Position numbers and translations under genes: made by a program. The notes beneath the pieces were generated by a model that saw only the letters and a list, made by a program, of their open reading frames with translations, was not told where the DNA came from and ran no database searches. Positions 13,741-44,455 of a stretch of DNA of 64,000 bases are shown here, piece after piece. The DNA lies in contig JBPGPT010000002.1 of the NCBI GenBank assembly GCA_051047955.1, forward strand, positions 992,001 to 1,056,000. Reading direction: 5' to 3'. How positions within the stretch are numbered: position 1 is the first letter of the stretch; each line of letters begins with the position of its first letter. The stretch comes from Cystobasidiomycetes sp. EMM_F5. Its lineage: Eukaryota.

Positions 13741-15664
13741 ATGTCTGAAGTCATGCAGCAGCCCATAACGACGTTCAATGCGCTGCCAGACAGCGAAAGA
13801 ACGAGAGACTTGCTCCAATCTTTCAAAAAACAATACGACTGCGATGCAGAATATGTAGCGAGAGCTCCAGGGCGAGTCAGTATCATAGGCGGTGAGTCCG
13901 TGGAGCTCGCTGTGGACGCGGAATTGAATTGACTGACATCGGCTCGAACAGAACATATTGATTATGCGGGTTAGACATACACGCGCGTTCGCTAATGCTG
14001 CAAAGAAGGCTGAGCTTGTATTACAGGCCTGTCTGTCATGCCCGCAGCGATTGACCGCAACATCCTCATGGCGTGCACAGCTGAAAGTAGTTCAGGTGGA
14101 GAATCGCGTATCACCGTATCCAATGTCAACCCGCGATTTACGACGGAAGAAGTGGTATACAAGCCAGGGAAGACGGGACCCCAGCTCGACCAAAAGGCGC
14201 ACACTTGGGTGAATTATTTCAAGGTAAACGACCGTCTCCCGAATACGGCTACGAATTCATCTGACATATGCATGTTGCTCAGGCAGGCCTAAAAGTATGT
14301 CCGTCACGCGCTTTACCCATCAACACCGTTAACCCGTTGTTCCTGCCTAGGGAGTCCTGCTGCATCTATCCGACGAGACAGCTGCCAAGTCCATCAGCCT
14401 GAAAATAATGGTCGATGGAAACGTGCCTCCAGCTGGTGGACTGTCTTCGAGTGCTGCTATGGTGGTAGCATCGGCTATTGCCGTCATCAATGCGTATGGA
14501 GCCATGTCTTCGACAACACAGGGCCAGCTGGCGGAGATTGCCATTACAAGTGAACGGCTAGTGGGAGTCAACTCTGGCGGCATGGATCAGTCAGCTAGCA
14601 TATTCAGTCGTGAGAATTATCTCCTCAATGTGTGAGTTGCAAGCGCGTCGGGCGCAAAATGCTAGCTAATGCTACATTTCTCTGCAGCGGCTTTGTCCCA
14701 AAACTCACCGCTACTCTGGTGCCTTTTCCGAAACGCAAGCCTGGCATTTCTTTTGTGATTGCAAACAGTCTTGTAGTTTCGGAAAAGCAAGTCACGGCCA
14801 AATACAACTATAACCTACGAGTGGTCGAGATGCGCGTAGCAGCAAAGATGCTGCAGAATCACCTCAAATTGAAGTTGCCGATGCCGCTTCCCACCCCGAA
14901 AGACATCATGGATGCGCGTTTCAATGGACCCCTTGATGCTGAAGCTTCCGACTACCTTGATCAGGAGCAGAAAAGGCTGCAAAGCATGCTTGAGAGTGTG
15001 GAAGAGCTGTTCGGCAACAACCGCACAGGCGTAGCTTGGGGAGATGTCTACAGTCTGCTTGGCGGAATAGATTCACAGCAATTCAAGGAGACTTTCAATC
15101 CTGACTTTGAGATTGAGGCATCGTCTCTGAAGCTCTACACACGCATAAAGCATGCGGTCAGTATGCCATGATGCGCTGCAGCGCGCGTGTTGCCTAGTAG
15201 CTGACCCTCTGCTCACAGTACTCCGAGGCTGGCCGTGTATACAGGTATCGCAAGCTTTTGGAAGATACAACAGAGGGCGATGAGCATTTGGCTAGTAATC
15301 TCGGCGAGCTCATGAACGAGAGTCAAGCGAGCTGTCGAGACTTGTATGAATGCTCCTGCCCCGAAATTGACGAGATCTGCGAGCTAGCTCGCAGTGCTGG
15401 AAGCTTGGGCAGTCGCGTCTCTGGCGCTGGGTGGGGTGGATGTACAGTAAGTGCTGGCATGTCTCTGCCGTAAATGAGCTCTTATCCAATAAACTCATAC
15501 TGCAGGTACATCTCGTGCCGGAAGACAAAGAAGGTGCCCTCATAAACACTCTGAAAAGGCAATATTACGCCAAGCGGTATCCTGATCTTTCGGACGAAGA
15601 GCTTGTGGCCGCACTGTTTGCAACAAGGCCGGAGGAGGGAGCTTGCCTGTATCTTGTATCATAA
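13741..15664 (+). CDS. GAL1: Galactokinase (GHMP kinase), multi-exon
   Basis: [64 protein letters not shown]. Confidence 0.96.
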
Positions 15665-21685: not shown

Positions 21686-21694
21686 ATATATGTT
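21686..21694 (+). promoter_or_regulatory. TATA-like element ATATATGTT upstream of tRNA-Ser
   Basis: Starts 40 nt before the mature 5' end. The same 9-mer starts 38 nt before the tRNA-Leu gene. Confidence 0.55.
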
Positions 21695-21725
21695 GTTTTC
21701 AGCCGTTCCTTAGCGATACCTTCGC

Positions 21726-21829
21726 ATCGCTTTGCCTGAGTGGTTATAGGGTGTGATTCGAATAAACACCATGTGTTTCATATCATCTCATGGGTTCTGC
21801 CCGCACAGGTTCAAATCCTGTAGGCGATG
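21726..21829 (+). tRNA. tRNA-Ser(CGA) with 22-nt canonical intron (21763-21784)
   Basis: Acceptor ATCGCTT/AGGCGAT, discriminator G, D-arm CCT..AGG, anticodon CGA at 21759-21761, long variable arm GGGTTCTGCCC, T-arm ACAGG-TTCAAAT-CCTGT. One U:U mismatch in the anticodon stem. Confidence 0.92.
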
Positions 21830-21834
21830 TTTTT
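21830..21834 (+). terminator. Pol III oligo(T) terminator of tRNA-Ser
   Basis: TTTTT directly after the discriminator base. Confidence 0.8.
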
Positions 21835-38784: not shown

Positions 38785-38902
38785 GGTGGAGTGCGAGTAG
38801 GTGTTACTCAGAGTCATCACATCGATTGACACCAGTCTGGAAATTGGATCATGATGTTCCAAATATTTGTCGACTTTCGACTCGCAATTACCTGAACGCA
38901 CC

Positions 38903-39652
38903 ATGCCGCCGTCAGCTGTGCCATCCGATGAGCTGCTCGAGGATATCGTATTCTCTGCCAGATACGGCGAACTGGAAGAAATACAGGAATTTGTGAAAGC
39001 GTACGGCATACAAGCACTGGTCGACGCAAAGAACGACAGAGGCAACGGGTGCTTGCACATGGCTGCCGCAAATGGTCACAACGGTGGGTGGTGTAGCTTC
39101 CGCGTTGTGGTCTAGCTGTGACTGAGCTTGGGGTCAAAATTGTCCAATGATGCAACAGACGTGTTGCAGTTCCTACTGCCACGCATGCCCCCAGCATCTC
39201 TCACAGCCGTCAATGATTCCGGAAACACCCCATTGCACTGGGCAGCCATGAATGGCCACCTTGAGACCCTTCGTCTCCTCGTCGGATCACTACCCAAATC
39301 TGCTCTCTTCTTGCAAAATCAGTTTGGCAGAACCCCGTTATCAGAAGCCGAAGCAAAGTCACAGACACTTGTTGGAGACTCCAAACATGGTAGTAACTCC
39401 GGCGACCAGACAGAAAATTCACCTACCGTTGACGCCCCTGCTCCCGACAAACACCAAGAATGCGCTGGCTTTCTTTTGGGGCTCATGGATCTAGAAGGCA
39501 TGAAGGAGGATGGGAAAGATGGCGTTACGCAGGACGACGAAACCGATGTTGGCGCAATCGCTCCCCAAAAACCACCGGATCTGGCCATGGATCATTCGGA
39601 GCAGCTTACTAGTAAAGTGTCAAAGCTGAGTGTAAATGGGCATGCGCAATGA
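38903..39652 (+). CDS. YAR1: Ankyrin-repeat protein, Yar1-like
   Basis: DIVFSARYGELEE, GNGCLHMAAANGH, NDSGNTPLHWAAMNGHLE, acidic tail, one intron. Confidence 0.8.
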
Positions 39653-39777
39653 GACTGTACAATTAGTTGTGTCATATCGTGACGCGCATCATTTCATTCT
39701 TGTCTGAATCAATGTATAATGACCTATTTCATCTGCAGCTGCCGTTTAATCGTATGCAGAACTCTTCTGGTAGCCTT

Positions 39778-41005
39778 TCACAATTCCCCAACAATCTTTT
39801 GCGCTCCAGTCGAAGCTGCACTGTAGACTGAGCTCGCGCTGGCTGAGACTACCGACGCAGCACTCTCCACAGTTTTCGAGGCATCGGCCGCAACAGATGC
39901 ACCAGAAGCGTAAGCCTGCTTGGCGGCCTTGTCTGCTTCTCCTGCTACGCTCGCAGCCGAACTGGAAGCCTGTGCAGCGGCGGTTTCAGCGGCGCTGCTA
40001 ACGACCGACGATACGGAGCTGGCGGAAGCGCCCGCTTGCGAAATGATGCTTGCGGCGCTGGCGGAGGCTCCGTTGAAAGCGGCCAGGATATTTTGTCTGA
40101 TCTGAAGGTCGTCTAGCTGTTTGCCTGCCATAGTACCACGTTTGCTAGCAAGCTTTTGAAGGCGTTGAAACTCCTTTTGTGCCCAGTCTGATGACGACGC
40201 CGCCTTTTCGAACACCTTAAGGTAGTAGGTGGCTGCACTGACTTGGGCAGGGACTTGTAGTTTGGCAGCGAGCTGTTTGGCTTGGCTGAGGATTGTTGTG
40301 CGAGCGTCATCAGTCGAGCCGAGGTATGAGGCAAGGAGAGCATCGAAGTCGGGAAGTCGGCCGGCCTGGAATATCATCAGAATGATGCAAATTGTTTCGT
40401 GTCAGAGGAAAGTCACCGACAATGTCATTGAGTAATCCTCCTGTGCTGCGATGCGTGCCTGCTTGCTCGTTGATGTACTCCAGAAAAGCGGACTCGGTTC
40501 TGCCAGATTGGTAGTCGAGCGGTGCTGAGCCGTCGGCGGGGAAGAACTGTAACATCGTCAGCTAAGTCCATGCGCGCTAGCATGCGAGGTCACCTTGATA
40601 GTGGGATATCCCTTTACTCCAAATCTCTCGGCCGTTGGGCGATTGTCTGCGTTGTCTGCGTCGAGTTGCCCGATAAGAACCTAGAGAAGAAGTGTTGGTG
40701 GCAGGCTATTGCGGTCGATTTGCGACCCACGCTGTCCTCATCTGCAAAGTCCTTTCCCAATGCCTCCCACGTCGGCTCAAGCGACTTGCAATGACCGCAC
40801 CACGGCGCAAAGAAGGCGACCAGTGCATTCTTGCCATTGATTGCAGAGTCAAAGTTGGCGGCAGTGAGTTTAGTCGTCGACTGTGCTTAAAGCGTGAGTT
40901 GCAACCCAATGACGACGTGGCACTTCGTACCTTGACGTCTTCAAGTCCGGCCTGAACGCCAGCGAGGAGGGAGCCAATAACAACTGCGTAGTTTGTGAAT
41001 CTCAT
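39778..41005 (-). CDS. Protein disulfide isomerase family: signal peptide, one WCGHC thioredoxin domain, ERp29-C-like domain, Ala/Ser-rich tail
   Basis: MRFTNYAVVIGSLLAGVQA, FFAPWCGHCKSLEP, FGVKGYPTIK, DYQSGRT, AGRLPDFD, YYLKVFEK, DDLQIRQNILAAF. Ends KIVGEL. Confidence 0.88.
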
Positions 41006-41422
41006 GATGCAGATGATGGGGTTTAGTTGAACCAGCTTGCGAATTGAATGCGTTGTCAGCGCCCCCAAATGAATAATGATCGAAGAAGAAACCCAGATGT
41101 ACACGAGCACGACTATTACAGCAAGCTCTTTGTGCGTACTTCTTGGTGTCGATTGGCCGTACAGTCCGCTTATATGCCCGCTTCACGACCGCTCTGTGCA
41201 AATGGCCATGTAATCGGCTACCCAACCGCCAACGCAACCACAAAAAATCGGGCAATAGTAATTCTCGACAAGCAAATACATGTACGGATACCACTGTAGC
41301 TGCTCTACATGACTGCGTATTTTGTTTGAGCAAAAGTTGCGAAGTTGTCGTTCGACACCAGGCAATGCGGAATGAGAAGCAGCGGAGCGGGAGAATAGGC
41401 AACACCATGCGAAAAAGAATGG

Positions 41423-41427
41423 AAAAA
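41423..41427 (-). terminator. Pol III oligo(T) terminator of tRNA-Leu
   Basis: TTTTT on the minus strand, 4 nt after the discriminator A (41432). Confidence 0.75.
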
Positions 41428-41451
41428 GTAATGAAGACAGAGGGATTCGAA

Positions 41452-41508
41452 CTAGATAGAGCGCATTCATCAGTTCTACACCGCTACCAATTAGAGCCTC
41501 TAACGCAC
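41452..41508 (-). other. Spliceosomal-type intron in tRNA-Leu T-arm (position 53/54), 57 nt
   Basis: GTGCGT...ACTGAT...TAG. Confidence 0.88.
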
Positions 41509-41530
41509 CCCTCGCCCCGAAAGACTAGAT

Positions 41531-41559
41531 ATCGGCGGTGTCACTCTATCGAGTGTAGT
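41531..41559 (-). other. Canonical tRNA intron (37/38) of tRNA-Leu, 29 nt
   Basis: One base 3' of the anticodon, no GT-AG ends, internal hairpin CACTC-GATA-GAGTG. Confidence 0.88.
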
Positions 41560-41572
41560 CCTTAGTCTAGCG

Positions 41573-41626
41573 CTGATCTTATCATATCAGAACGGTTGTA
41601 ATATCGTCGGTAGCATTGTGACTAAC
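41573..41626 (-). other. Spliceosomal-type intron in tRNA-Leu D-stem (position 24/25), 54 nt
   Basis: GTTAGT...TCTGAT...CAG. Confidence 0.88.
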
Positions 41627-41637
41627 CCTTAGACCGC

Positions 41638-41697
41638 CTGATAATGATTTTCATTTAGTCCGAATTCCTCATGAGCGAAGAATTGGTAGGAACTGAC
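41638..41697 (-). other. Spliceosomal-type intron in tRNA-Leu D-loop (position 14/15), 60 nt
   Basis: GTCAGT...ACTAAA (weaker branch-site match)...CAG. Confidence 0.85.
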
Positions 41698-41740
41698 TCG
41701 GCCATATCTCCGATATTGATGGAGTCCGTTCGGGTGCTGT

Positions 41741-41749
41741 AACATATAT
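41741..41749 (-). promoter_or_regulatory. TATA-like element ATATATGTT upstream of tRNA-Leu
   Basis: Starts 38 nt upstream of the mature 5' end; identical 9-mer upstream of tRNA-Ser. Confidence 0.55.
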
Positions 41750-42300
41750 AACCCGACAACATGCAATTTTTTCTGCAGCAGCTTCTCCGCTTTTATTTTC
41801 GAAAAGCCAACCGCGGAATATCTCTTTCGTGGGTACTTCTTTCCGCTTATGCACCTCTCACCCTGATGACAACAACAGCCACATATTCCGGCTTCAGCGA
41901 TGCTACTAATTTGTCAAGCCTAAATTCAACATTCTTCGAAAATGCAATTAGCTTCGGATCTAGAAGATTTTGCCCGGTTCGCAGGTATATTCTTATATGT
42001 ACGCCTTGTATTTACAACGGGTACTCTCGCTGCTGATCAACCTCACGTTTTTGGGGCAGTTTCAAGACCGGCGTTGCGGTGAAGCGAACCCTCCCTTTGT
42101 TAGAACCACTTTTAGCTTATTCTAACAGGCTGACATATTTGTACATTGCTAACTAGTTTTCAAGCGAGCTCCTCTATGATCACAAGTCCGCGGCAGACCC
42201 CACGAATTCCCCCACGGGCCGTGATATTGTCTGACAATTCCTTCGCTTCTGCTGGATCCCATCAGGACAGACTGTGCGATTCACTCTTACCTTTTCACCA

Positions 42301-42347
42301 GTTGCGGACTGCGCAGTGAGCATATATCACACTGCGCAGTCGGCAAC
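42301..42347. repeat. Inverted repeat, 18-nt arms (17 pairs), 11-nt loop
   Basis: GTTGCGGACTGCGCAGTG / CACTGCGCAGTCGGCAAC; each arm contains the palindrome ACTGCGCAGT. Confidence 0.85.
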
Positions 42348-42466
42348 CATAACAGAGCCTAGCCGTAAGCAGTTTCTGCAATTGCAAGCGTAAGGCAATG
42401 TCAAGAAATGTTTCGAGAAGTGTGAGGCGGAGAAGCTTAAGCCGAGAATACTGAAAACAATAGCTA

Positions 42467-43253
42467 ATGTATATTGTTACTAAGCTGCAATGCCTCCTCT
42501 GTCCCCAGCTCCAATCCATCCCAAGCTTCAGGGGCACTGCTCCTGCCCCGCAAACTATTCAAAACGACTTGCGCCCTGTCGTTGATCTTATAGTCGACAC
42601 CTCGGCCGTAAAGGCTGTAGACACACTATCTGCTGTCGCTCCTACCAGCACTTGGAATATTACAACCCGGAAGCCCCTCAACAATCGCGGCCGCGGCCTG
42701 GGCAAGGACCTAGTTGAGAAACCGCAAGGAGACCTCCAGAAATGGTTTTGGAACCCAAAGTAGCGGCACGCTCCAGCAGAGCTTGACCGGCCTGTTAAGC
42801 TTGCCAGGCTCAATGAGCCTGCTGCTTTGCTATCAGTGAGTGATCACTCTGAAACGCCGTCGACATTGTCGATCGCTTCCACGTCTTCGACTTTCTGTGG
42901 CTTCTTGCCCACACACTCTTCCACGCAATCTTCCTTCTACGGCGTCATCGGCGGAGCCGCTTCCGCTTCGTCTTCGACTTCGACTTCGCCAAAAGCTTCC
43001 GCATCCTCCTTCTTCCCCAAGTACCGTTCGCGCATTGCAGGTGCTGCAACAGAGATTATCCTTACTGCTGAGGAAGCAGAGACAACTGATGTCCATGTGA
43101 AGACCTGGACCACAAGGCGCCTGCGTCGACCACATCGGGACAGGCCCAGGTAAGTCAGCAGAGCCTGCGGCTCAGACATAGGCTGACATCTGCATCAGCA
43201 TTGCGAAGCGGTTCATATCGCACGAATTCACCAAGTCTGGAAAGGAGCTCTAG
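42467..43253 (+). pseudogene. Possible degenerate or orphan gene: Ser-rich frame broken by one in-frame TAG (42761-42763)
   Basis: ORFs 42467-42763 and 42827-43153 share a frame that stays open between them, followed by a GTAAGT...GCTGAC...CAG intron. No recognisable family. Confidence 0.3.
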
Positions 43254-43276
43254 GTTGTTTGACTGACGGTAGCACA

Positions 43277-43316
43277 CAAGAACAAACAAGAACAGGCAAG
43301 AACAAGCAAAAACAAG
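43277..43316 (+). repeat. Imperfect 10-nt tandem repeat (CAAGAACAAR-like, 4 copies)
   Basis: caagaacaaa caagaacagg caagaacaag caaaaacaag. Confidence 0.7.
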
Positions 43317-43383
43317 AAGTGCGTACCTAAGATGCTTGGATGACCAGCATAACCAGCTTAGCATCTCGATAGTCTTCCTAATT

Positions 43384-44283
43384 CTATTCAGGCCTGTGCA
43401 ACCTCTCTTGGTACGCCGCCCAGCCGGCATTTCTATATTCTCTAGCAGTCTCGGCTATCCTGTCGGCCTTGCTATAGATTCCTCTCCCGACAATGATAAT
43501 GTCGCAGCCGTCTCTGGCGACGACCTCGTGAGGCGTACGATATTGTTGGCCTAGCTCGCCATTCGAAGCTGCCAATTGTACGCCCGGTGTCAGGACTAGG
43601 AAATCTTCACTGTTGTGCTCGCTCATTCGATGCTGAGCTATGAACCCCATTACAAATTCTTGATTCCTCCGGGCCATCTCGAGCGTCTTCTTTGTGTACT
43701 CGCCTGTTGCCAGAGAACCTGCACTGCTCATTTCTGCCAAAAGCAGGAGACCCCTGTTTTGCGGCAATCCGACTTTGGCCAGACCCGCAATGATTCCCTC
43801 GCCTGGAACAGTATGAGCATTCACGACATGAGCCCACGATGCGATATTGTACACGCCAGAGGAATATTGAAGCGAGACGGTATTGCCAATGTCGGCGAAT
43901 TTGCGGTCCTCTATGCGACCAGCGTCAGTCACGAGCGAAGACACGTAGATTATGCATATATCACACCAAATATCAGAAAGTCATGTTGTTTGCTCAGTTC
44001 CGTTAGTCGCCGTGTTAGTTCTGGCGTAAAGTCCTCGACAATGTCAATATGCGTCTGATTGCATTACTTCAGCACAGCAAGCTTGTTGATCTTGCCCGCA
44101 ACCTACCTTGACCATGCATAGGAACGGAGCGGCAGTTTCAACAATCCTGATAATCTCGTCGCTTTTCGTCACGTCCACCGACAGGCATAGATTGGATTGC
44201 TTCCGCTCCATCAGCTCGAGCAGCTCTCTTGCCAGAGGATGTCGATGCTTTCTCGCCCGTTCAGCATAAGTTTGCGTATTCAT
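43384..44283 (-). CDS. URA3: Orotidine-5'-phosphate decarboxylase
   Basis: [63 protein letters not shown]. Confidence 0.97.
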
Positions 44284-44455
44284 GCTGTCGTTTGGTCAGA
44301 AGAATACAATGGAGTTACCATATTCTGGACCTTGCAGCTTGACACCGTTACGCACAACCGGCTGAGCACGATGGGATGCCAAAATGCAACTGTGACAATG
44401 CGAGCTCATGGTTGCATTAGCACGTCTAGCTGAATGCTGTCCGTGATTGGCAAGC

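What the first reader, a model, noticed from the sequence alone, without database searches (positions are those of the whole stretch)
41432..41711. A tRNA-Leu(AAG) gene interrupted by three spliceosomal-type (GT-AG) introns plus a canonical tRNA intron
Seen: five minus-strand pieces of 14, 11, 13, 22 and 20 nt join into a complete 80-nt tRNA-Leu cloverleaf with all stems paired, anticodon AAG, long variable arm and discriminator A. Three of the four spacers look like this genome's mRNA introns: 60 nt GTCAGT..ACTAAA..CAG at tRNA position 14/15, 54 nt GTTAGT..CTGAT..CAG at 24/25, and 57 nt GTGCGT..CTGAT..TAG at 53/54. Excision exactly at GT/AG restores each arm to the nucleotide. The fourth is a 29-nt intron at 37/38. 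Established: nuclear tRNA introns are normally cut by the SEN/TSEN endonuclease, while spliceosomal introns are known in some fungal snRNA genes (U6 of Schizosaccharomyces and some red yeasts), U3 snoRNA and lichen rDNA. I know of no described case in a tRNA. Inference: maturation needs the spliceosome first, to allow folding, and then SEN plus ligase. Standard tRNA finders would likely miss such genes, so there may be a hidden class.
Basis: partly seen in the sequence, partly recalled or inferred. Interest (0 to 1): 0.97.

Follow-up and report, generated by a model that had tools for sequence, protein, structure and literature searches.

The report
tRNA gene split by mRNA-type introns
A fungal leucine tRNA gene is cut into five pieces by three introns of the kind normally seen in protein-coding genes plus one ordinary tRNA intron, an arrangement I could not find described anywhere and which would need two different splicing machines to make one tRNA.

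Summary
Five minus-strand pieces (14, 11, 13, 22 and 20 nt, 41711-41432) join into an 80-nt tRNA-Leu(AAG) that ARAGORN accepts. It finds nothing in the raw locus, and neither does Rfam. The three spacers of 60, 54 and 57 nt begin GTNNGT, carry a CTRA branch motif 14-18 nt before a YAG end, and match the size of four RNA-supported mRNA introns of the neighbouring gene (47-55 nt). The chance of three such spacers is about 2e-13. None has a bulge-helix-bulge motif.

New here: the gene keeps full RNA polymerase III dress.
- It has two T5 runs right after the 3' end.
- It has no T4 inside the gene.
- Its A and B boxes are nearly intact in the unspliced DNA.
- It has an upstream ATATATGTT whose only other copy in the window sits at the same distance before a conventional tRNA-Ser gene.

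What is missing is RNA evidence, relatives and the rest of the genome. None of these could be reached.

Nine literature searches found no tRNA gene with spliceosomal introns. The nearest precedents are the fungal U6, U3 and rDNA introns.

Verdict: probably a working gene (about 0.6), and highly unusual.

The parts
41741..41749 (-). Upstream TATA-like element ATATATGTT, at -38..-30 from the first base of the tRNA. Likely a TFIIIB/TBP site (inferred).
   Evidence: this 9-mer occurs only twice in the window (both strands; 0.24 expected). The other copy is at -40..-32 of the conventional tRNA-Ser gene, on that gene's strand.
41698..41711 (-). Exon 1 (14 nt): acceptor 5' strand, U8, start of the D arm up to A14. 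Holds most of the A box.
41638..41697 (-). Intron 1, 60 nt, spliceosomal type, at tRNA position 14/15: GTCAGT...ACTAAA...CAG
   Evidence: It is a candidate in the strict scan. No BHB motif.
41627..41637 (-). Exon 2 (11 nt): D loop with G18 G19, and the D-stem 3' strand up to position 24
41573..41626 (-). Intron 2, 54 nt, spliceosomal type, at 24/25: GTTAGT...CTGAT...CAG
41560..41572 (-). Exon 3 (13 nt): position 25-26, anticodon stem 5' strand, loop with anticodon AAG and G37
41531..41559 (-). Canonical tRNA intron, 29 nt, at 37/38; no GT..AG ends
   Evidence: ARAGORN reports it as an anticodon-loop intron once the other three spacers are removed.
41509..41530 (-). Exon 4 (22 nt): A38, anticodon stem 3' strand, long variable arm, T stem 5' strand up to G53
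41452..41508 (-). Intron 4, 57 nt, spliceosomal type, at 53/54: GTGCGT...CTGAT...TAG. Its terminal AG together with exon 5 recreates 10 of 11 B-box positions in the DNA.
41432..41451 (-). Exon 5 (20 nt): T loop, T stem 3' strand, acceptor 3' strand, discriminator A73
41412..41427 (-). Two T5 runs (41427-41423 and 41416-41412), 5 and 16 nt after the discriminator. Pol III terminators (inferred).
   Evidence: A T5 within 20 nt downstream occurs at only 0.79% of 127,360 window positions.

Best explanation
This is a live nuclear tRNA-Leu(AAG) gene of an ascomycete fungus. It is built like an ordinary RNA polymerase III gene, with an upstream TATA-like element, internal A and B boxes and an oligo-T terminator, but its body has picked up three spliceosomal (U2-type GT-AG) introns in the D loop, D stem and T arm. 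These come on top of the usual endonuclease-type intron next to the anticodon.

Proposed pathway:
1. Pol III makes a precursor of about 290 nt.
2. That precursor cannot fold into an L shape, so the spliceosome must first remove the three introns by intron definition.
3. Only then can the tRNA body fold and be recognised by RNase P, RNase Z and the CCA enzyme.
4. The tRNA splicing endonuclease and ligase then remove the 29-nt intron.

Shown: the gene anatomy, the splice-signal quality, the Pol III signals and the absence of BHB motifs. Inferred: transcription, every splicing step and their order.
For: (1) Removing the three spacers exactly at GT/AG restores a complete class II tRNA-Leu(AAG). 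It has the expected invariant bases I could read (U8, A14, G18 G19, U33, G37, the T-loop TTCGAAT, A73) and a canonical-position intron.
(2) Each spacer has GTNNGT, a CTRA branch motif 14-18 nt from a YAG end, and a length of 54-60 nt. Four introns of the neighbouring thioredoxin/ERp29 gene, bridged by spliced RNA contigs, are 47-55 nt with the same kind of signals. The joint chance is about 1.8e-13.
(3) The three introns are unrelated to each other and unique in the window, so they look like three separate gains. A cloverleaf with all its stems still paired (two G-U wobbles in the acceptor stem) after three gains argues for selection on the spliced product (inference).
(4) Pol III features are present. 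T5 runs lie 5 and 16 nt after the 3' end (0.79% of window positions have one). No T4 occurs in the 280-nt body (49% of positions, so this is weak). The only two copies of ATATATGTT in the window sit about 30-40 nt upstream of this gene and of the conventional tRNA-Ser(CGA) gene, each on its gene's strand.
(5) In the unspliced DNA the intron's GT and AG keep 9 of 11 A-box and 10 of 11 B-box positions. This is my reading against consensus motifs recalled from memory.
(6) No intron has a 4-bp BHB central helix: 0 of 4 in two sequence contexts.
(7) No Pfam-bearing ORF overlaps the locus: 0 of 10 ORFs.
(8) There is a precedent for a Pol III transcript being spliced by the spliceosome. The Schizosaccharomyces U6 gene has an mRNA-type intron that even carries its B box, and its splicing fails in prp mutants. 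I saw only the titles, in the reference lists of PMC5855946 and PMC5832005.
Against: No step of expression or splicing has been observed, and everything rests on one DNA locus in one window. The A-to-B box distance is about 240 bp, against about 35 bp in a normal tRNA gene. The first exon is only 14 nt, and exon 2 is an 11-nt micro-exon between two introns, which is demanding for the spliceosome. The branch motif of intron 1 (ACTAAA) departs from CTRAY. The only other tRNA gene in the window has no such intron, so this is not a general habit of the genome. I do not know whether uninterrupted tRNA-Leu(AAG) copies exist elsewhere in the genome; if many do, this copy could be dispensable. As I recall (not checked here), Pol III transcripts are not spliced in mammalian cells.
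Confidence: 0.6

Rival explanations
1. Dead or dying copy. A former tRNA-Leu(AAG) gene was disabled by intron-like insertions, is not spliced into a working tRNA, and is tolerated because intact paralogues supply the tRNA.
For: tRNA-Leu(AAG) is usually multi-copy in filamentous ascomycetes (recalled, not tested). The stretched promoter geometry and the 11-nt exon make efficient expression doubtful. No relative with the same architecture was found in the collections I could scan (see Tried and rejected).
Against: Three unrelated insertions in an 80-bp target, each with a full set of splice signals and each excisable to the nucleotide, without one substitution that breaks a stem or an invariant base. 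This is hard to get without selection. Gene conversion from intact paralogues would erase the introns, not preserve them (inference). The terminator and upstream element are intact. There is no target-site duplication longer than 1 nt and no repeat family, so transposon insertion is not indicated.
Confidence: 0.2
2. Pol II-hosted tRNA. The pieces are exons of a spliced Pol II non-coding transcript (or an upstream extension of the neighbouring gene's transcript), and the tRNA is cut out by RNase P and RNase Z after ordinary co-transcriptional splicing.
For: The spliceosome is normally coupled to Pol II. The tRNA lies about 430 nt upstream of, and on the same strand as, the thioredoxin/ERp29 gene, whose ATG is near 41005.
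Against: Two T5 runs directly after the tRNA, and the same upstream 9-mer as the conventional tRNA-Ser gene, point to Pol III. A TATAAG lies between the tRNA and the neighbour's ATG, about 170 nt before it, so the neighbour appears to have its own promoter (by reading).
Confidence: 0.1
3. Endonuclease-type ectopic tRNA introns, as in Thermoproteales archaea, Cyanidioschyzon merolae or nucleomorphs. These would be cut by the tRNA splicing endonuclease, with the GT..AG ends a coincidence.
For: tRNA genes with up to three introns at non-canonical positions, including the D and T arms, are the only documented multi-intron tRNAs (PMC3978253, passages read; PMC8450103, passages read).
Against: 0 of 4 introns here can form the 4-bp central helix of a bulge-helix-bulge, in either the full precursor or the single-intron context; 22% of 20,000 random pairs can. 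The full splice-signal set on all three has a chance of about 2e-13. Their lengths match this genome's mRNA introns.
Confidence: 0.03
4. Chance resemblance or assembly artefact.
For: None found.
Against: Control sequences gave 0 ARAGORN hits in 945 strict and 453,270 loose intron-removal combinations. The chance estimate is 1.8e-13.
Confidence: 0.01

Closest known systems
mRNA-type (spliceosomal) introns in fungal U6 snRNA genes (Schizosaccharomyces, Rhodotorula and others), and in U1, U2, U5 snRNA and U3 snoRNA genes
   Same: A short GT-AG intron with mRNA-type signals sits inside a small, highly structured non-coding RNA gene. U6 is a Pol III transcript whose intron is removed by the spliceosome, and its intron is compatible with (in fact carries) the B-box promoter element. 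Here too the intron ends help to keep the A and B boxes. Sources: titles in the reference lists of PMC5855946 and PMC5832005, and the abstract and passages of PMC5832005.
   Different: The host RNA is a tRNA, not a spliceosome or nucleolar component. So the usual explanation (an intron reverse-spliced into an RNA that sits in the catalytic centre) does not obviously apply. There are three introns in 80 nt, and a second, unrelated splicing system (SEN plus ligase) must act on the same molecule.
Multi-intron and ectopic-intron tRNA genes of Thermoproteales archaea, Cyanidioschyzon merolae and the Guillardia nucleomorph
   Same: A tRNA gene broken at several positions, including the D and T arms; invisible to plain tRNA finders; the canonical 37/38 intron is thought to be processed last (PMC3978253, passages).
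   Different: Those introns are recognised by the tRNA endonuclease through a bulge-helix-bulge or a relaxed form of it. Here no BHB can be drawn, and the introns carry a 5' splice site, branch motif and YAG.
Spliceosomal introns in nuclear rDNA of ascomycetes (Cubero et al. 2000; Bhattacharya et al. 2000)
   Same: Spliceosomal-type introns in conserved regions of a non-Pol II, non-coding RNA gene of ascomycete fungi, thought to spread by reverse splicing. I saw only the introduction passage and reference list of PMC11889510.
   Different: Pol I rather than Pol III, a long rRNA rather than an 80-nt tRNA, and no second intron type in the same molecule.
Engineered yeast tRNA gene carrying a pre-mRNA intron (Koehrer, Vogel and Domdey, about 1990)
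   Same: As I recall it, a Pol III pre-tRNA with an mRNA intron put in place of its own was spliced by the pre-mRNA pathway in yeast. That would be a proof of principle for the mechanism proposed here.
   Different: Artificial, with a single intron at the anticodon loop. This is recalled from memory only: my search for it found no paper holding the title words, so treat it as unverified.

Membership tests
tRNA-Leu (class II tRNA) gene | Cloverleaf with 7-bp acceptor, D, anticodon and T arms and a long variable arm, recognised by a tRNA finder | tested here: met
   ARAGORN calls tRNA-Leu(aag), 80 nt, on the in-silico spliced sequence, and the same with the 29-nt intron retained. This is not met on raw DNA: ARAGORN 0 genes, Rfam 0 at gathering score and no tRNA hit at E<=10.
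tRNA-Leu (class II tRNA) gene | Leucine identity features: discriminator A73, A35, G37 (recalled for yeast) | tested here: met
   Read from the cloverleaf. The rule itself is recalled, not from a call.
tRNA-Leu (class II tRNA) gene | A mature, aminoacylated tRNA exists | not testable with these tools
   No RNA data for the locus.
Spliceosomal (U2-type GT-AG) intron | 5' GT with an extended donor (GTNNGT), a branch motif 10-40 nt before the end, and a 3' YAG | tested here: met
   All 3 of 3 spacers. The frequency of such segments is 2.8e-5 per start/end pair.
Spliceosomal (U2-type GT-AG) intron | Length within the genome's own intron range | tested here: met
   54-60 nt against 47-55 nt for the 4 introns bridged by RNA contigs in the neighbouring gene. 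The comparison set is small.
Spliceosomal (U2-type GT-AG) intron | Removed by the spliceosome through a lariat; exon-exon junction reads | not testable with these tools
   No run covering the locus was available.
BHB / endonuclease-type ectopic tRNA intron | Two 3-nt bulges separated by a 4-bp helix at the exon-intron junctions | tested here: not met
   0 of 4 introns, in the full precursor and in the single-intron context.
Canonical eukaryotic tRNA intron | Position one base 3' of the anticodon (37/38), short, without splice-site consensus | tested here: met
   29 nt at 41559-41531, reported by ARAGORN. C32 and the third-last intron base G could form the anticodon-intron pair (a recalled rule). 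The window's tRNA-Ser intron lacks that pair, so I give it little weight.
RNA polymerase III type 2 (tRNA-type) gene | Internal A and B boxes | tested here: inconclusive
   The unspliced DNA matches 9 of 11 and 10 of 11 positions of the consensus motifs as I recall them (TRGCNNAGTGG, GGTTCGANTCC), but the two boxes lie about 240 bp apart (by reading).
RNA polymerase III type 2 (tRNA-type) gene | Oligo-T terminator just downstream and none inside | tested here: met
   T5 at +285 and +296, and no T4 within the 280 nt. Background rates are 0.79% and 49%.
RNA polymerase III type 2 (tRNA-type) gene | The same upstream element as other tRNA genes of the genome | tested here: met
   ATATATGTT occurs only at -38..-30 of this gene and at -40..-32 of tRNA-Ser(CGA). 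There is only one comparison gene.
Introner-like element / transposon-derived intron | Many near-identical copies, stable fold, target-site duplication | tested here: not met
   Within the window only. The best non-self match is 11 nt, the three introns share at most 9 nt, their fold z-scores are -1.1, +0.8 and -0.7, and no direct repeat longer than 1 nt lies at the borders. A genome-wide test was not possible.

The most novel reading that the evidence does not exclude
A working, Pol III-transcribed tRNA gene whose single transcript must pass through both eukaryotic nuclear splicing systems: the spliceosome three times, then the tRNA endonuclease and ligase. It could be the visible tip of a class of tRNA genes in some ascomycetes that every standard tRNA finder misses, so that tRNA gene counts and 'missing isoacceptors' in those genomes are wrong.
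Probability: 0.5. Interest if true: 0.93.

Novelty: new variant of a known kind. Interest (0 to 1): 0.86.

Why it matters
[quoted passage not shown] A tRNA gene with both kinds would break that separation and raise several testable points.

- It would show that a short, uncapped Pol III transcript with 11-14-nt exons can be a spliceosome substrate in a filamentous fungus.
- It would give a natural system for asking how tRNA quality control, La, RNase P and RNase Z wait for the spliceosome.
- It would extend intron gain in abundant structured RNAs (U6, U3, rRNA) to tRNA, which bears on reverse splicing as a route of intron gain.
- Practically, such genes are invisible to ARAGORN and to the Rfam tRNA model, so tRNA repertoires of some fungi may be under-counted.

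Tried and rejected
1. Whole genome: none is held for this window. I could not count intact tRNA-Leu(AAG) copies or scan genome-wide.

2. Sequencing runs: no RNA holder was listed. Two small-share holders (0.07 and 0.06) were found, both from one study. Laid on 39700-44300, their contigs are spliced mRNA of the neighbouring gene. Nothing covered 41394-42933, so there is no information on the tRNA locus either way. One contig's loose end at 41243 was followed up with a 16-nt motif. The only match in the window was a 2-mismatch one at 14384, so it is unexplained, probably divergence in a relative.

3. Relatives: a pattern demanding exon 1 + GTNNGT + 30-60 nt + AG + exon 2 found 3 loci in the metagenome contigs. 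By reading, all three are G+C-rich sequence that does not continue as a tRNA, so they are chance matches. The same pattern found 0 in the prokaryote genome collection, as expected. No eukaryote genome collection was available, so conservation is untested.

4. Introner and repeat origin: no copies in the window.

5. BHB motifs: none.

6. Other split tRNAs in the window: none. One search used a wrong ARAGORN flag, and capped exons at 60 nt. One search repeated only the strict GTNNGT scan with larger exon limits; the loose GT-only scan was not rerun.

7. ARAGORN at a lowered threshold gave 9 calls. By reading, 8 of them lack any T-loop consensus and I dropped them as noise. The ninth is the real tRNA-Ser.

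8. Earlier notes of this scan: nothing on this genome or sequence, and 8 unrelated intron notes.

9. Literature: searches found no tRNA gene with spliceosomal introns. One search failed on a too-short term. Papers PMC4829304, PMC330678 and PMC334889 are not held. The library covers open-access papers only, and no supplements were read.

10. Protein-coding overlap: 0 of 10 ORFs around the locus hit Pfam.

Full report
**The observation**

There are five pieces of 14, 11, 13, 22 and 20 nt, separated by spacers of 60, 54, 29 and 57 nt. Joined by coordinates inside a script, the pieces form an 80-nt sequence that ARAGORN calls tRNA-Leu(aag). It has a 7-bp acceptor stem (two G-U pairs), 5-bp anticodon and T stems, a long variable arm and discriminator A. 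If the 29-nt spacer is left in, ARAGORN reports the same tRNA with an anticodon-loop intron at the canonical site.

The raw DNA is invisible to the usual tools:
- ARAGORN found 0 genes in the window.
- Rfam at gathering score found 0 matches.
- At E<=10, the stretch 41000-42200 gave only three meaningless matches, none of them to the tRNA family.

**Is it chance?**

Each of the three long spacers starts GTNNGT (GTCAGT, GTTAGT, GTGCGT). Each has a CTRA-type branch motif (ACTAAA, CTGAT, CTGAT) 14-18 nt before its end, and each ends in YAG. In the window, 350 of 12,288,000 start/end pairs of 35-130 nt meet these rules. Each spacer can be placed in two equivalent ways, because one base is shared between the intron end and the exon.

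As an empirical control I removed every combination of up to four candidate introns on both strands and ran ARAGORN.
- Under the strict rules, 4 of 217 minus-strand combinations gave a tRNA that spans all junctions. All four are at this locus: the true one, plus three that use alternative 3' sites and give poorer calls.
- 0 of 277 plus-strand combinations did.
- 0 of 945 combinations in the reversed and complemented controls did.

Under a loose GT-only rule, 11 of 41,776 combinations hit, again all at this locus, and 0 of 453,270 control combinations hit. That run capped exons at 60 nt.

**Are the spacers like this genome's introns?**

The two weak run holders turned out to carry spliced RNA contigs of the next gene downstream. 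That gene is a thioredoxin plus ERp29-domain protein, that is, a PDI-like protein (Pfam). The contigs bridge four GT..AG introns of 47-55 nt on the same strand. The tRNA spacers are 54-60 nt, and their donor and branch motifs are, if anything, closer to the fungal consensus than those four. The window is fungal: an OMP decarboxylase fragment finds eukaryotic, mostly Ascomycota, clusters.

**What they are not**

- Not endonuclease-type introns. None of the four introns, in the full precursor or with the other introns removed, can form the 4-bp central helix of a bulge-helix-bulge. That motif defines the ectopic tRNA introns of archaea and Cyanidioschyzon (definition from PMC3978253).
- Not members of a repeat family. 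They share no more than 9 nt with each other and no more than 11 nt with anything else in the window. They are not unusually stable folds (z = -1.1, +0.8, -0.7).
- Not flanked by direct repeats longer than 1 nt. An introner-type transposon origin is therefore not indicated, although only 64 kb could be searched.
- Not overlapped by a protein-coding gene. 0 of 10 ORFs around the locus hit Pfam.

**New evidence: the gene still looks like a Pol III gene**

1. Two T5 runs lie 5 and 16 nt after the discriminator. Only 0.79% of window positions have a T5 within 20 nt downstream. There is no T4 inside the 280 nt, which is needed if Pol III is to read through. That is weak evidence, since 49% of positions share it.

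2. ARAGORN in intron mode finds one conventional tRNA gene in the window, tRNA-Ser(CGA) at 21725-21830, with a 24-nt canonical intron and a T5 at its end. Its upstream flank holds ATATATGTT at about -40..-32. The same 9-mer lies at -38..-30 of the split Leu gene. These are the only two copies in the window on either strand (0.24 expected), and each is on its gene's strand. The surrounding flanks are otherwise unalike. So this is a shared promoter element and not a duplication.

3. In the unspliced DNA, the GT of intron 1 and the AG of intron 4 fall where the A and B boxes want G/T and G. As a result 9 of 11 and 10 of 11 positions of the consensus boxes survive. The consensus is recalled from memory, and the match is my reading. 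The introns stretch the A-to-B distance to about 240 bp but do not destroy either box.

**Mechanism (inferred)**

- TFIIIC binds the B box. TFIIIB is placed with help from the upstream TATA-like element. Pol III transcribes to the T5 runs.
- The MFE fold of the 280-nt precursor has no tRNA arms other than the acceptor pairing. So RNase P, RNase Z and the tRNA endonuclease, which all read the folded body (established knowledge), cannot act first.
- The spliceosome removes the three introns by intron definition.
- The 109-nt product can then adopt the tRNA fold that ARAGORN draws. It is end-processed, and SEN and the ligase finally remove the 29-nt intron.
- In yeasts SEN sits on mitochondria (recalled), which would enforce this order.
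- The Schizosaccharomyces U6 gene shows that a Pol III transcript can be spliced by the spliceosome. I saw only titles, in the reference lists read. I also recall an engineered yeast tRNA gene with an mRNA intron that was spliced by the mRNA pathway, but I could not verify that paper.

**Weighing function against decay**

Three unrelated introns mean three separate gains. If the copy had been dead since the first gain, a cloverleaf with every stem still paired, intact invariant bases, intact splice signals on all three introns, an intact terminator and an intact upstream element would be unlikely. Gene conversion from intact paralogues would delete the introns rather than keep them.

Against function:
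- the stretched promoter;
- the 14-nt first exon and the 11-nt micro-exon;
- the off-consensus branch motif of intron 1;
- the fact that nothing here shows RNA.

I put a working gene at about 0.6, or about 0.7 if a Pol II-hosted variant is included. A dead copy gets about 0.2, and endonuclease-type introns about 0.03.

**What is known**

Nine full-text searches returned no paper describing a spliceosomal intron in a tRNA gene. They included six phrase variants of 'spliceosomal intron in tRNA'.
- A 2025 paper on tRNA introns states the usual separation of intron types (PMC12530127, passages).
- The tRNAscan-SE 2.0 paper treats non-canonical tRNA introns as an archaeal BHB matter (PMC8450103, passages).

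The closest known things are:
- the mRNA-type introns of fungal U6, U1, U2, U5 and U3 genes;
- the spliceosomal introns of ascomycete rDNA (PMC11889510, passages);
- on the tRNA side, the BHB-dependent multi-intron tRNA genes.

This locus combines the two: a new host RNA for a known kind of intron, and a new kind of intron for a known kind of broken tRNA gene. The library is open-access only and I read no supplements, so an earlier description in a subscription journal cannot be excluded.

**Limits**

No genome, no relatives and no RNA for the locus could be reached. The 'hidden class' idea is therefore open. Within this window there is one split and one conventional tRNA gene.

Noticed in passing
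window 21725-21830 (+), flanks 21686-21694 and 21830-21834: A conventional tRNA-Ser(CGA) gene with a 24-nt anticodon-loop intron. The default ARAGORN call and Rfam at gathering score both missed it. ARAGORN draws an 8-bp acceptor with discriminator T. I read it as starting one base later (A1), with G73 followed directly by T5. It has the same upstream ATATATGTT as the split Leu gene.
   Followed up: partly
window about 39778-41005 (-): A PDI-like gene (thioredoxin plus ERp29 C-terminal domain) about 430 nt downstream of the tRNA on the same strand. It has four introns (40366-40420, 40547-40593, 40681-40730, 40881-40930) that are bridged by spliced RNA contigs of two public runs. A TATAAG lies about 170 nt before its ATG.
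   Followed up: partly
window 41243: One RNA-run contig follows the window up to 41243, inside a T-run and not at a splice site. It then continues for 251 nt of sequence that a 16-nt probe (2 mismatches allowed) did not find near the locus. Probably promoter-region divergence in a close relative, but unexplained.
   Followed up: partly
window 43384-44295 (-): An orotidine 5'-phosphate decarboxylase (pyrG/URA3-type) gene in at least two ORF pieces, so it is interrupted by at least one short intron. The 1.6 kb between it and the tRNA holds only ORFs without Pfam hits.
   Followed up: no
window 38855-39652 (+): An ankyrin-repeat protein gene, convergent with the PDI-like gene.
   Followed up: no
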